Of a stretch of DNA of 64,000 nt, positions 26,701 to 37,915 are shown in pieces. Positions within the stretch are counted from its first letter, which is position 1; each line of letters opens with the position of its first letter. The notes below the pieces were generated by a model, which worked only from the letters and a program-made list of their open reading frames with translations, searched no databases and was not told the origin of the DNA. The stretch lies in contig NW_026889758.1 of the NCBI RefSeq assembly GCF_033153115.1, forward strand, positions 53,320,001 to 53,384,000. Reading direction: 5' to 3'. This DNA is from Saccostrea echinata (lineage: Eukaryota). The position numbers and the translations under genes were made by a program.

Positions 26701-29700
26701 TTAATAAGATTCAGTCTGAGCTCCTAGATATTTATCTCCCGATATCTCCTCTTCCTGATTTTCCAGAAAATCGTCCGCAGCTCGAAGTACCTGACGAAGA
26801 TTGTACAATGTCAGTATTTTAATCTCTTTGGAGACAGTTGGAGAGTTTGCGAGATTTTGCATCGGCAGAACGGTATAGGGAGGCAACCCAAACGACATGG
26901 CGACTTTGTCTCTCATCTCCAAGACGCTTCTACTGTGAAAAACTTTCGACAAGTCTTCCTTTGCAGTAGCCATCGTATCAACTTTGGTAAGCAGGATCAA
27001 CTGCGGGATTTCTAAACAAAATAAAATTTTGTCATAACTCAATAGATATGAAACTAATTTTGAAAATAAAAATGCCATCATAAATCAAATGCTGAATTAA
27101 TGACATACAACGACTTTTCACAATTTCCTTTTTAAACAATATCAAAACACAACCTACTTCGTCTATTCATCATTTCTTGGAGTTCTTTCACTTGTTTTTC
27201 AACGTTCTGAGACATTGTTATTTCGGGTGGATTCGAACCATCAACAACAAAGATGACACAGTGGATACGATCAGCTAAGGTCGGATCTTTTCTAAACTTG
27301 GGATTATCTTTAGTAATCGGTGTACTTTGATTGAACTAAAAAAAACATCAAGATTCAGATTTATATATTCTTCATGTTTATTATTTGATGCGTACACGTG
27401 CACTTTTAAGCTTCCCTCATTCTTTATCAGAGTCATGAACGTTCAAGAAATAATAATAATAATGAAACCAATGACAGTACACACTTTGTTGGTAATCCGT
27501 TGGCGACTTTCGCAGGAGGCGCTCGCGACCAGAATATGAAGCATATGAAACGAGTAACAACCGCATGCAGCATACAAGCAACTTATTTCACCGTTTGAGT
27601 AACGAATGCGTATCGCGTAAAACGTAAGAAACTGTGCGCTGTTGTCGACTTACAGTCCTGTGGTTGTCTTAATTCTAAAGCACACCCGGTTTATTCGTTT
27701 CTTGGCCAGTTGTTATCCAGCTGGACTTACGTCCCAAGGACCTCATCCAAATAACCAAACTGGCCAAGAGAGCGAAAAGAAACACGCGAGTTCCGTACAA
27801 ACACAAAGCTGCTGCACTTTAAACGGACACTTCAATCTAATGTTTCCGCCGGATTCTTGGCGGACAAAAAAACGGATTGAAAATTTTGTCATCCCGAGGA
27901 TACTTGTCATTCGGTACTTATTCATTCATGAGTGGTGTCCGTATTTAATTTGACATTTTATAAGCGTTATTCGATAAGGTGTGACTGGGGGGGGGGGGGG
28001 GTCTCAAACATATTAATTTACATTCAGTGGGGTGGGTGGGGTGGGGGTAGGTTCCAATTTCTTTCAGTACCAAATTTTATATACATGTATACACTACTAC
28101 ATTACCCTTATTTGACTATACTGCAACAAAAAAGGGGGGGGGGGCAGCCGGCTTTTCATGAACATTTTCAATTGTAAAAAGTTATGTTAGACCCCCCCCC
28201 CCCCCATGCTACGTGCCTGTGTCGACTTTCACTATCAATGTGCGAAAGACGTTTAATTCTTGCTTCGAATACAAACCACATATCCATCCATCACGTGACC
28301 ATCCAGAATTGCCTCAACATCTCGAGAGTTCACACTTTGGTCTTCTTCTAAACCACGACAATCTACCATTCTAAAGTTTAAGGCGCCAGATGTTTTTCTT
28401 CCTTTTACTTTGTAAACATCAAGCTAGAATTAAAGATCATTTCATTAAAAAAAAGTCAATCAATTCGAGGCCCAAGACATAGAAGGAAAAGTTAGCATAA
28501 CGCACATTATAGATTATGCAAAAATACTGTATGTATATCTTCGGCTCTCTGTTGCTGATTTTTTTAAGCAATATAAATGGAAGGTTTAAAAAAAATTTAA
28601 TATCTTTCTTTCAAACTAAAAATCAAAAGTTCACGTTTTCAATGCCTGACATTTAGTAACCTCAGTCTCTTTTATAGATTATTTCTATTTTGGTAAAGAA
28701 CTATATAAAAAAAAAAAAAAAACAGTTTTCATACATGTACGTATATCTTATTTTGTATGTTTCCTATCCATTACTGATCACCTAGCTTTTCGAAACTTGC
28801 CTTTAAAAATATTTTTCAAAGAAAAAAACGAGTGTCGGAAAAAATTAAAACACTGCAAAGTTGATTATGTGAGCTCATCTGCAATGTGTTTGGTAAAATG
28901 AAGTCTGTGAATTCATTGTTTTCTACGCGATCACTAGAAAAGTGAAAAATAGCGTTATTTTTAAAGCCCAAACATGGAAATGTTCGACGACCTTTAATTG
29001 TGAGTGTAGGATTTGAAGTAGAAGATTGCTATTCTTCTTATAGTTAGAGCGATGCCTGTTGGTCACAGGCACTTGTTTCGAATACGGGGCACCCCTACTT
29101 ATTTTTACCACAAGGTACCTAACTCAATTTCAGGCACCTGGTCGATCCTCTTTATTGTAAACCGCTCATTTCTTCCTCGAAAATTATCTCGATACAAAAT
29201 AAGACTACGAATGGGATACATAGACTCCCGGTTGGGTTATAAATGAAGGATAAAACCAGAGACCTCGGAAAGGAATACTCGTAAGTCTATGGACTTATCC
29301 TACATTTATAACCCCAACCGGAAGTCAATGTATACCATTTGTAGTCTTATTTTGTATCGAGATAATTTTCGAGAAGAAATGAGCGGTTTACAATATAGAG
29401 GATCGACCAGAGACGTCCGAAACGATTAATTTGACAAGAAAAAAGTCTTTCGAAGCTAACGATGTCATTTTAAAGTAGATTAATGATTGATATATAAACA
29501 AAATACGAGCTTGAAGCGGGGGTGCCTGAAATTGAGTTAGGTACCTTGTGGTAAAAATAAGTAGGGGTGCCCCGTATACGAAACAAGTGCCTGTGTTGTT
29601 GGTGATAACCTTTTGTTTATTCACCAATTGCAATTGATCGGACCATATAATTATTTATGTGATTTGTGATTGGGTAAACCTACTGATTTTGTTAAGCTAG

Positions 29701-36200: not shown

Positions 36201-37915
36201 AAAATTATTCTATTTCTTTTGAATTATAAATACATTTATATACACATGTAATTTAATTAAATTTGTATATTTCTTTATAAAAATATCTATCATGAATTAT
36301 CAGCTTCGTCTACCATTTGGTCTTGACCTTTGGTCTGTAACGCATTTGGTTACATAATTTTTTTTTATCTGAAGATTGAACTAAGTACCAAAAGATCAAG
36401 AATACACTGATAATTTATACACTCTACATGAATTTTTATGAATAATTTTACATATGTCCTTCTCTTGAAGAAAGCCAGATACAGAAATTAAACAGAATCA
36501 TCGAAGGTAATTATTTTATTTTAATGCAGAGAATTAAAATAAGTGGTATAAGATACAATCCTTAATTTCTTGAAAAAACTAGTAAAAAAAGTACAGACTG
36601 TTTTTAAATTTTCTTTTCAGACACGAAAAACACGTTAGAAAATCATCAAAGGGAAAATTCAGAACTAAGAAAGTCAAATCATCAGCACAAGTCATCCTTA
36701 GCTGTCAAAGAAAGAGAATTAAGCCAGCTAGAGGGTAAGCTATTATACTCCTCTTTTTCATCCAATCAGAATTGTTCTTAGTATATTTCTTTTTTAATTA
36801 TTTTTATGATTAATAAAACTGGCAAATGCTTTCTACTGATTTTGTTGAGAAATTGTTTAAATTATAGAGAGATGTAGAAAACTGGAAGTCCAGATTGAAA
36901 AGAATTCCAGAAAAGAAATTTGTAAGTGCTCCATCAGTTAATAGATTTCTTGACTTTTTATTGCATTTCTTAATCAACTGACCATTAGTATATTTCATTT
37001 AAAAAAGGTGTTGGATTTCATACGACACTTGCACCAACCATGTCCTCACTAATACTAGATGGACTGATGAAAGAGCTGACTGACCGCTTGGCGGTGGAAA
37101 AGGTCGATCTGGTGAGACGGCCATTTTATGGAAATACAGATTTCAATTTTCCTCTGTTGGCCATATGTGTAAACGTCTCGAGGATTGGGACAGATGCTAA
37201 AGAAGTACTTAAGGGAATACCAAAAGGTATGTGCATATTTTCTAATTAGAGAATTAGAGTAAAAATTGCTGTAGCAATTCATTATTTAAAAATATAATTT
37301 TTTATTAGTATTGAGTGATTCGTGGCAGTTCCATATGTAATTCACTTCCATGGTGGCATAAGCATTAATCCAGCGACTTTCAGTGTGTTTGTGATGCATA
37401 TAATATATTTTGCTTCTGGTACTGGAAACAGTAATTTTATGTTTTAAATCAATAAGCATGTAATCTTTCCATTCGTATCTTGGATTGTTGTTGTCTGATT
37501 AAAGTGTAGTTTATAAATATTTCCTTTGATCTGTGGCTTTCGAGAAAAAAAGGGAAATAGGAATAATTTACCTGAAGGAGAGAAAAGACTAGTATAATTT
37601 ATTATTGTAATTTACGTGAACACTTATCTAACATGCAATATTTACTTTCTTTTTGTAACATGTAATATTTACTTTCTTTTTGTAGCTAACAATTCTAAGG
37701 ATGTTGCACTTTTGGTGTTCCATCATAAGGAGGTTCATGCTTTACCAAGTCAGACAAGTGACAAAATTCTCACCGGAACTGATTTCAGTCATCTTGGTAC
37801 CATTATAGATTTTGCTTTTCTATCTCAGAGAGGAATTTATGAATGTGACATGAACATGATGGGTATCGAACGAATTGCATCCTTCTTACTACAGTACAAA
37901 ACGAAGAAAAATTAA
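33298..37915 (+). CDS. Uncharacterised 449-aa protein: long coiled coil plus C-terminal alpha/beta (putative TIR/SEFIR-like) domain
   Basis: Exons 33298-33319, 33810-33880, 34495-35098, 36471-36506, 36621-36734, 36868-36921, 37008-37226 and 37686-37915 join in frame to 1350 nt with GT-AG junctions. E/K-rich heptad region, then PLLAICVNVSRIGTDAKEVL...VALLVFHH...IIDFAF...GIYECDMN. The acceptor at 37007 is weak. Confidence 0.8.

What the first reader, a model, noticed from the sequence alone, without database searches (positions are those of the whole stretch)
26701..37915. Head-to-head pair of putative interferon-like-response genes, each with its own perfect ISRE
Seen in sequence: an IFI44-like GTPase (minus) and an unannotated coiled-coil gene (plus) diverge from a ~2-kb spacer (ATGs at 31256 and 33298). 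Each has a perfect AGTTTCNNTTTC with an extra third half-site ~170-205 bp upstream of its ATG, in the same orientation relative to its own transcription (31461-31478; 33115-33131). Established knowledge: IFI44/IFI44L are vertebrate ISGs, IRFs bind ISREs, and bivalves have IRFs and a dsRNA-inducible antiviral state without a recognised interferon gene. Inference: this is a co-regulated IRF-driven antiviral module, and the partner gene is an undescribed effector or adaptor.
Basis: partly seen in the sequence, partly recalled or inferred. Interest (0 to 1): 0.8.

Follow-up and report, generated by a model that had tools for sequence, protein, structure and literature searches.

The report
Oyster IFI44 GTPase and unnamed partner
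In a rock oyster, an antiviral-type GTPase gene (IFI44-like) sits back to back with a gene for an unnamed protein domain that clams fuse to the same GTPase, fish repeat in tandem and two fish viruses appear to carry, which points to an overlooked part of animal antiviral defence.

Summary
Both genes are intact (IFI44-like, 316 aa, no TLDc; partner, 449 aa), and each has a perfect AGTTTCNNTTTC 170-205 bp upstream of its ATG (genome rate 8.4 per Mb). The sites are 1.6 kb apart with a dispersed repeat between them: two promoters, not one bidirectional one. The partner (RefSeq 'paramyosin-like') is a coiled coil plus a 150-aa alpha/beta domain without a Pfam family. It occurs in bivalves, teleosts (3-12 repeats) and a caecilian, and is fused behind IFI44 GTPases in two proteins, at least one pairing independent of the oyster one. 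The only other family member found in this genome also has an IRF element 43 bp upstream. The Pacific-oyster orthologue lies in the OsHV-1-associated module with IRFs, ADAR and STING. Fold and Walker-A remnants in relatives suggest a degenerate G domain (pseudo-GTPase); receiver, flavodoxin and TIR folds are not excluded. The best viral fold matches are two fish RNA virus polyproteins (structure only). Not shown: induction in this species, IRF binding, physical interaction. The pairing seems absent in Magallana gigas. Verdict: probable IRF-driven gene pair whose partner defines an undescribed IFI44-associated domain family.

The parts
26701..31256 (-). IFI44-like GTPase gene, 316 aa, no TLDc domain; coding exons 31256-31237, 30479-30395, 29893-29684, 28423-28277, 27335-27158, 27011-26701
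   Evidence: Open spliced frame colinear with P0025, 91% identical; no TLDc match in the window; G1 GRISSGKS, G3 DCRG, G4 TKVD read from the translation; oyster TLDc-less clade 100/100
29774..29797 (-). Walker A / G1 motif (GRISSGKS) of the IFI44-like protein
   Evidence: Translation; weak P-loop family hits; G68, G73, K74 invariant in 42 homologues
31408..31414 (-). TATA-like sequence about 45 nt downstream of ISRE 1 (inferred promoter element)
   Evidence: Read from sequence; not tested
31461..31478 (-). ISRE/IRF element 1: perfect 12-mer core plus third GAAA half-site in register
   Evidence: not among the repeat matches scored in the genome
32249..32352 (.). Dispersed palindromic repeat (MITE-like) midway between the two promoters
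   Evidence: Inverted arms; dozens of genomic matches
33115..33131 (+). ISRE/IRF element 2; its 16-mer form GAAACGAAAACGAAAS occurs 9 times in the genome, 2 of them upstream of TLDc-IFI44 paralogues
   Evidence: 33000-33340 has one match in the genome
33152..33278 (+). Candidate 5'-UTR intron (GTAAGT...CAG); would place ISRE 2 at or next to the transcription start
   Evidence: Splice signals read from sequence; no RNA evidence
33298..37915 (+). Partner gene, 449 aa; coding exons 33298-33319, 33810-33880, 34495-35098, 36471-36506, 36621-36734, 36868-36921, 37008-37226, 37686-37915
   Evidence: Open spliced frame; equals RefSeq P0001 from the second ATG
34537..34548 (+). CxxC motif ahead of the coiled coil
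   Evidence: CxxC in 9 of 10 oyster homologues examined, CxC in the tenth; role inferred only
34693..36917 (+). Coiled-coil stalk (about 200 aa)
   Evidence: 53% E/K/Q/R/L; only sub-threshold coiled-coil Pfam hits
36918..37912 (+). C-terminal 150-aa five-stranded alpha/beta domain without a Pfam family; conserved C-x3-SRxGTD, HH, D-x-AF-x4-GxYxCxxN; probable degenerate G domain

Best explanation
Two adjacent genes are each switched on by their own promoter-proximal IRF element when oyster RLR/STING signalling activates IRFs (elements shown in sequence; IRF binding and induction inferred). One encodes a TLDc-less IFI44-family GTPase with intact G1/G3/G4 motifs (shown). The other encodes a coiled-coil stalk capped by an undescribed domain (shown) that most likely derives from a small-GTPase fold and has lost its P-loop in oysters, i.e. 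a pseudo-GTPase (inferred). The pair is the split form of the GTPase-coiled coil-domain chain seen in clam fusion proteins (fusion shown; equivalence inferred). The partner most likely acts as a non-catalytic scaffold or regulator that oligomerises through its coiled coil and positions or tunes the IFI44 GTPase in the antiviral state (inferred, by analogy with IRG/IRGM and GIMAP pairs, recalled). Step odds: both IRF-inducible about 0.75; same pathway about 0.55; GTPase ancestry about 0.55; direct binding about 0.3.
For: Perfect cores near both ATGs against 8.4 per Mb. Held-out test: the only other family member found in G000 (2 loci in each) has AAACCGAAAGCGAAAGT ending 43 bp before its ATG; chance about 0.02 for the looser consensus (10 sites in 164 kb). 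The M. gigas orthologue LOC105324205 = G12191 is in the 'yellow' module positively tied to early POMS/OsHV-1 infection, kME 0.75, with IRFs (0.92, 0.89), ADAR (0.89), STING, RNA helicases and TLDc-domain genes (PMC12803857 Table S7). Oyster IRF2/IRF8 activate ISRE reporters (PMC5557890 passages); an oyster IFI44 is OsHV-1-induced (PMC4111845 passages); G000 has 4 IRF loci. Fusions: 2 of 149 family proteins carry an N-terminal IFI44 GTPase (P0064, on a 1,792-nt Logan contig; P0113, Mactra); the P0064 GTPase groups with venerid IFI44s (100/99), apart from the oyster clade. Linkage elsewhere, inferred from equal contig lengths: S. cucullata pairs on 240,824 and 61,182 nt scaffolds, Ruditapes on 739,934 nt; Mactra accessions five apart. 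Fold: model pLDDT 93.6; LRRK2 Roc Z 10.0 (rmsd 3.4, 133 aligned), CENP-M Z 10.0 (4.1, 133), IRGQ Z 9.5 (3.4, 130); roughly three quarters of the 50 rows are G domains by title. GK[STAP] at the beta1-alpha1 loop in 34 of 123 rows against 8 of 760 control windows; 24 rows read [SC]G[MLV]GK; xGxT in 88 of 134 fish-type repeats.
Against: No RNA evidence for this locus was obtained. The infection list is large (2,327 genes in fed oysters) and the orthologue is absent from the starved list. The pair looks absent in M. gigas (inferred from gene numbering and GO terms). The second family member has no IFI44 gene within the 60 kb examined; 0 of 119 further IFI44 proteins carry the domain. Positive controls are weak: the AG-core 12-mer is in 1 of 20 TLDc-IFI44 upstream regions; the looser consensus gives 9 sites in those 20 regions against 2.5 in shuffles but about 5 from real background, and the paralogues are not independent; viperin has only a one-mismatch site; 1 of 4 IRF loci has a site within 8 kb, at -4.2 kb; of the six other copies of the 16-mer, 1 is clearly promoter-proximal, 2 lie in reading frames, 3 are unresolved. 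The top fold match is a receiver domain (ComE, Z 11.0, rmsd 3.2, 123 aligned), tied with the G domains; G domains are abundant in the PDB; profile comparison with IFI44 GTPases shows no similarity.
Confidence: 0.5

Rival explanations
1. Both genes are IRF-induced but work independently. They are neighbours because inducible genes cluster, and the clam fusions are read-through or gene-model joins of tandem neighbours.
For: Pair apparently missing in M. gigas; paralogue stands without IFI44; fusions are 2 of 149 and P0113 is a genome-predicted model; fish carry the domain as repeats, sometimes with Ig, fn3 or stonustoxin-like parts, and none had an IFI44 domain.
Against: Association recurs with different IFI44 clades in oysters, a venerid-like clam, Mactra and probably Ruditapes; P0064 is one open frame on a single 1,792-nt contig and keeps the order GTPase-coiled coil-domain, as does P0113.
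Confidence: 0.28
2. The domain is not GTPase-derived but a flavodoxin-, receiver- or TIR-like ligand-binding or catalytic effector, with the near-invariant C, S, R, H, D, C, N forming its site; the coiled coil drives activation by clustering.
For: ComE receiver Z 11.0, TIR-STING Z 9.1, RPS4 TIR Z 8.7, flavodoxins among Foldseek and Atlas matches; polar residues 94-99% conserved; fish TGNT loop resembles the flavodoxin phosphate loop (recalled); fish repeats keep a Glu after GTD in 52 of 66 motifs.
Against: That Glu is not kept in bivalves; SGxGK[ST] in one subfamily fits a Walker A better; no Pfam hit to these families on the domain.
Confidence: 0.2
3. One or both ISRE-like sites are chance A/T-rich matches and the partner is a housekeeping coiled-coil protein.
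For: 7,779 cores genome-wide, fewer than the reversed control pattern (10,241); similar sites ride on repeats in this window (34241, 60989, 61426); known antiviral genes tested lack perfect sites.
Against: Position next to both ATGs, the paralogue's independent site, the orthologue's infection module and the IFI44 fusions.
Confidence: 0.1
4. The 2-kb spacer is one bidirectional promoter.
For: Head-to-head layout.
Against: Sites 1,637 bp apart, each close to its own gene, with a dispersed repeat between; the paralogue has its own site without a partner.
Confidence: 0.05

Closest known systems
IFI44 / IFI44L family (vertebrate ISGs; oyster CgIFI44L-1)
   Same: GTPase domain 32-38% identical to fish, clam and oyster IFI44 proteins; named IFI44-like in four oyster records; an oyster IFI44 is OsHV-1-induced (PMC4111845 passages).
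   Different: No TLDc domain (CgIFI44L-1 has TLDc + MMR_HSR1, PMC11682996 passage); long-branched clade so far seen only in Saccostrea and Ostrea; paired with the new domain.
ISRE / IRF-E promoters of interferon-stimulated genes
   Same: Consensus core with extra half-sites close to the start; oyster IRFs activate ISRE reporters (PMC5557890 passages).
   Different: Endogenous oyster sites untested here; STAT/ISGF3 involvement not examined.
Pseudo-GTPases and GTPase pairs: CENP-M, IRGQ, IRG GKS/GMS pairs, GIMAP2/GIMAP7
   Same: Fold matches to CENP-M, IRGQ, Roc and GIMAP2; an active GTPase gene beside a degenerate one; tandem repeats in fish (regulatory pairing recalled, not from a call).
   Different: 8-17% identity, no sequence-profile support, only five strands, own conserved C/H/D/N set; long N-terminal coiled coil.
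Uncharacterised teleost repeat proteins (e.g. LOC115196392, LOC108261615; the zebrafish name si:ch211-245h14.1 is recalled and unverified)
   Same: Same domain by profile search.
   Different: 3-12 tandem copies, xGxT loop and GTDIE motif kept, no IFI44 fusion seen.
Paramyosin (RefSeq label)
   Same: Coiled-coil composition only.
   Different: 436-449 aa with a globular C-terminal domain; no myosin-tail Pfam match for P0001.

Membership tests
IFI44/IFI44L | IFI44-type GTPase domain by sequence | tested here: met
   E 1e-51 to 1e-70 against fish, clam and oyster IFI44 proteins, 91% to P0025; tree
IFI44/IFI44L | G1, G3, G4 motifs | tested here: met
   GRISSGKS, DCRG, TKVD, conserved in alignment A3
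IFI44/IFI44L | N-terminal TLDc domain | tested here: not met
   No TLDc match in the window with 4 query regions; orthologues P0025-P0029 also lack it. Filed as a TLDc-less variant
IFI44/IFI44L | Induction by dsRNA or virus | not testable with these tools
   No reads were laid on the locus; literature covers other oyster IFI44 genes
ISRE/IRF-E | Consensus match | tested here: met
ISRE/IRF-E | Promoter-proximal position | tested here: inconclusive
   167-205 bp from the ATGs; transcription starts unknown
ISRE/IRF-E | Conserved in orthologous promoters | not testable with these tools
   No other bivalve genome held; one 2-kb metagenome contig had only the last exon. Paralogue promoter has a site
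ISRE/IRF-E | IRF binding and ISRE-dependent transcription | not testable with these tools
   Bench test
P-loop GTPase fold / pseudo-GTPase (partner domain) | G-domain-like fold | tested here: inconclusive
   Z 9.5-10.0 to Roc, CENP-M, IRGQ, tied with a receiver domain at Z 11.0
P-loop GTPase fold / pseudo-GTPase (partner domain) | Walker A after strand 1 | tested here: not met
   Absent in this protein (HTTLAPTMS); remnant GK[STAP] in 34 of 123 relatives. Not an active GTPase; ancestry remains likely
P-loop GTPase fold / pseudo-GTPase (partner domain) | Sequence-profile similarity to GTPases | tested here: not met
   hhalign to IFI44 profile, probability under 1%; no Pfam hit
Receiver / flavodoxin / TIR fold | Flavodoxin-like five-stranded fold | tested here: inconclusive
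   ComE Z 11.0, TIR Z 8.6-9.1, flavodoxins TM 0.4-0.6
Receiver / flavodoxin / TIR fold | Family motifs by Pfam profile | tested here: not met
   0 families for the domain at E up to 10; none on domain-only relatives
Bidirectional promoter | One shared core region, usually under 1 kb between starts (recalled) | tested here: not met
   ATGs 2,042 bp apart, elements 1,637 bp apart, repeat between; true starts unknown
Paramyosin | Myosin-tail rod over the whole length | tested here: not met

The most novel reading that the evidence does not exclude
The partner domain is an old, unrecognised antiviral pseudo-GTPase module of molluscs and vertebrates (seen here in bivalves, teleosts and a caecilian) that works directly with IFI44-family GTPases as scaffold or regulator, is under IRF control from oysters on, and has been captured by at least two unrelated fish RNA viruses (a bafinivirus and a calicivirus), where it could act as a decoy. 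It would be the first dedicated partner module that makes the unresolved mechanism of IFI44 testable.
Probability: 0.25. Interest if true: 0.85.

Novelty: new variant of a known kind. Interest (0 to 1): 0.62.

Why it matters
How IFI44 proteins act is poorly understood (PMC4111845 says so for the antiviral role; passage seen). A domain that is fused to IFI44, encoded beside it, and possibly borrowed by fish viruses gives a concrete handle on that question and names a family now hidden under labels such as paramyosin-, interaptin- or trichohyalin-like. The locus also offers two endogenous oyster IRF elements for direct test (the paper read here used mammalian ISRE reporters) and a candidate marker for herpesvirus resistance.

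Tried and rejected
Expression at the locus: 5 runs hold exon 3, none on record as RNA ('no RNA holder listed'); no reads were laid, so splicing, starts and expression level stay open. Complex prediction of IFI44-like GTPase (P0025 18-305) with the domain: no verdict, score 0.01, alignments not used; no evidence either way. Single-sequence fold of a fish repeat protein failed (pLDDT 38.6) and was not searched. Sequence check of the viral fold matches: two scans of viral contigs found nothing; the two polyprotein sequences could not be fetched, so the match rests on structure alone. A scan of prokaryotic genomes did not run (alignment too diverse); prokaryotic relatives are untested. PDB sequence search with the mixed alignment returned coiled coils only. 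The poly(I:C) tables of PMC7064767 use CGI ids that I could not map (1 of 400 parts seen). The orthologue's ids were absent from the supplements searched for PMC7848083, PMC8917759 (5 of 16 files not searched) and PMC11541537 and from the main text of 10.64898/2026.05.15.723513 (its supplements are closed and may bear on induction). Literature searches for the family, its ids or an IFI44 fusion found no description; the library lacks most subscription journals, so this does not prove it is unpublished. Nucleoside deoxyribosyltransferase-like reading: considered from the fish GTDIE motif; not in the top 50 PDB rows and only a weak viral row; not excluded. Domain as a duplicate of the IFI44 G domain: no profile similarity. 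Earlier scan findings: none. RIG-I-like loci were listed but their promoters were not examined.
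Full report
1. Observation. The window holds 3 matches against 0.49 expected; the third is in a poly-T intron tract. The genome holds 7,779 matches in 923 Mb, 8.4 per Mb, so a given 300-bp upstream stretch has one with probability about 0.0025 and two given stretches about 6e-6 (my arithmetic). The motif is not enriched genome-wide (reversed control 10,241), so only its position counts. 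Site 1 has three half-sites in register, the only such triple in the window; the third half-site of site 2 is one base off. The sites lie 205 and 167 bp from the ATGs and 1,637 bp apart. A dispersed palindromic repeat sits between them. This argues for two promoters.

2. Genes. The minus gene gives a 316-aa open frame over six exons, colinear with and 91% identical to a Saccostrea cucullata IFI44-like protein. It has G1, G3 and G4 motifs and no TLDc domain. It belongs to a long-branched clade found so far in Saccostrea and Ostrea (100/100; 5 hits among 79 candidates, none from Crassostrea/Magallana). The plus gene gives 449 aa over eight exons and matches the Saccostrea echinata record P0001, 'paramyosin-like', from its second ATG. 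It reads: short N-terminus, CxxC, about 200 aa of coiled coil, then a 150-aa globular domain with no Pfam family.

3. The partner domain is a family. A profile of six oyster domains found 298 representatives at E up to 0.001, of which 150 were listed. Of the 19 non-query proteins looked up, named ones came from clams, an ark shell, a scallop, teleosts and a caecilian. Of 145 hits examined, 143 scored; 115 have one copy (110 at the C-terminus) and 25 have 3-12 copies. Conserved at 94-99% in 127 domains: C341, S345, R346, H373, D402, G410, C414, N417 (P0001 numbering). The ESM Atlas independently gave mollusc and chordate clusters, TM 0.78-0.80.

4. Link to IFI44. Two of 149 family proteins carry an IFI44 GTPase in front of the coiled coil and domain: P0064 (E 1e-61; one 1,792-nt Logan contig) and P0113 (E 1e-53; Mactra antiquata gene model). 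The P0064 GTPase groups with venerid IFI44 proteins (100/99), not with the oyster clade; P0113 is unplaced on a long branch. So the association arose or was reshuffled more than once. Equal contig lengths suggest linkage in S. cucullata (two scaffolds) and Ruditapes, and a stand-alone Mactra member is five accessions from the fusion; these are inferences, not inspected loci. Against: none of 119 further IFI44 proteins carries the domain; the second member in this genome has no IFI44 gene in the 60 kb examined; in M. gigas the gene numbered next to the orthologue has DNA-binding transcription-factor GO terms, which fits the homeobox gene on the far side of IFI44 in this window, so the IFI44 gene seems missing or unannotated there.

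5. Regulation. Held-out test: two searches each found only two family loci in G000. The second (C9, ATG at 2,310,692) has AAACCGAAAGCGAAAGT ending 43 bp upstream. With 10 looser-consensus sites in 164 kb of fetched DNA, chance is about 0.02. The M. gigas orthologue LOC105324205 = G12191 is listed in Table S7 of PMC12803857 (passages and supplement rows seen): genes of modules positively associated with early POMS/OsHV-1 infection. It is in the 'yellow' module (kME 0.75) with IRFs, ADAR, STING, RNA helicases and TLDc-domain genes. The fed list has 2,327 genes and the gene is not in the starved list, so this is moderate support. Oyster IRF2 and IRF8 activate ISRE reporters in HEK293T cells (PMC5557890, passages), an oyster IFI44 is OsHV-1-induced (PMC4111845, passages), and G000 has four IRF loci. 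Controls were mixed. The AG-core 12-mer was in 1 of 20 TLDc-IFI44 upstream regions; the looser consensus gave 9 sites in 8 of 20 regions against 2.5 in 30 shuffles (maximum 7) but about 5 from real background, in related genes. The exact 16-mer of site 2 occurs 9 times in the genome: here, upstream of two IFI44 paralogues (these three defined the pattern) and six more, of which one lies about 30 bp before the ATG of a caspase-like gene, two in reading frames and three unresolved. Viperin has a one-mismatch site about 100 bp upstream; 1 of 4 IRF loci had a site within 8 kb.

6. Fold and mechanism. The model is confident (pLDDT 93.6): five strands, flanking helices. PDB matches are tied: ComE receiver Z 11.0 (rmsd 3.2, 123 aligned), LRRK2 Roc 10.0 (3.4, 133), CENP-M 10.0 (4.1, 133), IRGQ 9.5 (3.4, 130), TIR-STING 9.1 (3.3, 119). 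By title roughly three quarters of the top 50 are G domains, which are also plentiful in the PDB. Sequence tips the balance: GK[STAP] sits in the strand-1/helix-1 loop in 34 of 123 rows against 8 of 760 control windows, 24 rows read [SC]G[MLV]GK, and 88 of 134 fish-type repeats have xGxT. The oyster copy has lost this loop. By eye HHK[DE] and AFxxxxG[IL] fall where G4 and G5 would (motifs recalled). No profile similarity to IFI44 GTPases was found. I read the domain as a probable pseudo-GTPase and the partner as a scaffold or regulator of the IFI44 GTPase; this step is inferred. A flavodoxin-, receiver- or TIR-like ligand-binding role is the main alternative.

7. Viral matches. Against predicted viral structures the two best of at least 500 matches are the Chinook salmon bafinivirus replicase (E 4.2e-7, TM 0.69, rmsd 3.0, 148 columns, 20% identity) and the Wenling yellow goosefish calicivirus polyprotein (E 3.3e-4, TM 0.57, 17%); the next is E 1.6e-3. 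The first is far better than any Foldseek PDB match (E 1.1e-4, TM 0.52), and both viruses are named from fish, where the domain is common. Capture from the host is likely but rests on predicted structures; I could not check it by sequence.

8. Comparison and novelty. IFI44 genes and IRF activity in oysters are known. The TLDc-less IFI44 clade is a variant. The partner domain, its fusion to IFI44 and the viral matches were not found in six literature searches of a library that lacks most subscription journals. The zebrafish name si:ch211-245h14.1 for the fish members is recalled and unverified.

9. Verdict. Observation confirmed. IRF control of both genes is likely, a single bidirectional promoter unlikely, and a working partnership plausible but unproven. 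The main value is the undescribed IFI44-associated domain family. Interest 0.62; new variant of a known kind.

Noticed in passing
window 29064-29595: MITE-like element with 75-nt terminal inverted repeats (99%) and nested internal inverted repeats in intron 3 of the IFI44-like gene.
   Followed up: no
window 33901-34364: Element with 27-nt inverted ends in intron 2 of the partner gene; it carries an ISRE-like GTGAAACTGAAAG at about 34239-34251, a possible mobile IRF site.
   Followed up: no
window 60989 and 61426 (minus): Two identical GAAAACGAAACGAAACT stretches, apparently within a repeated element.
   Followed up: no
window 13969-21284 (-), 41194-42464 (+), from 45529 (+), 3852-4313 (+): Neighbours: a homeobox gene, a Sjogren autoantigen p27 (ZNRD2-like) gene, two DOMON-domain genes in tandem, and a secreted Q-rich protein exon.
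   Followed up: partly
L047:4977-5040 (G000:C29:2845376): The same 16-mer as ISRE 2 lies about 30 bp before the ATG of a caspase-like gene (weak Peptidase_C14 hit): a further candidate IRF target.
   Followed up: partly
L007 (G000:C9:2310633-2314209): Second family member with its own triple-half-site IRF element and no IFI44 neighbour within 60 kb.
   Followed up: yes
G000 C29, C80, C14, C54, C51: About 20 TLDc-IFI44 loci, mostly in clusters; C80:11260 and C29:9154986 score identically, so C80 may partly duplicate C29.
   Followed up: partly
L037 (G000:C22:10816459, minus): Viperin first coding exon lies about 19 kb from the next matched exon and has GAAAGTAAAAGT about 100 bp upstream.
   Followed up: partly
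P0128 (catfish), P0145, P0168: Repeats of the domain are joined to stonustoxin-like, V-set Ig or fibronectin type III parts in some proteins; may be gene-model joins.
   Followed up: no
fold search of model m02ee982c5385: Two fish RNA virus polyproteins (A0A2P1GMV5, A0A2P1GMK5) are the best viral structural matches.
   Followed up: partly
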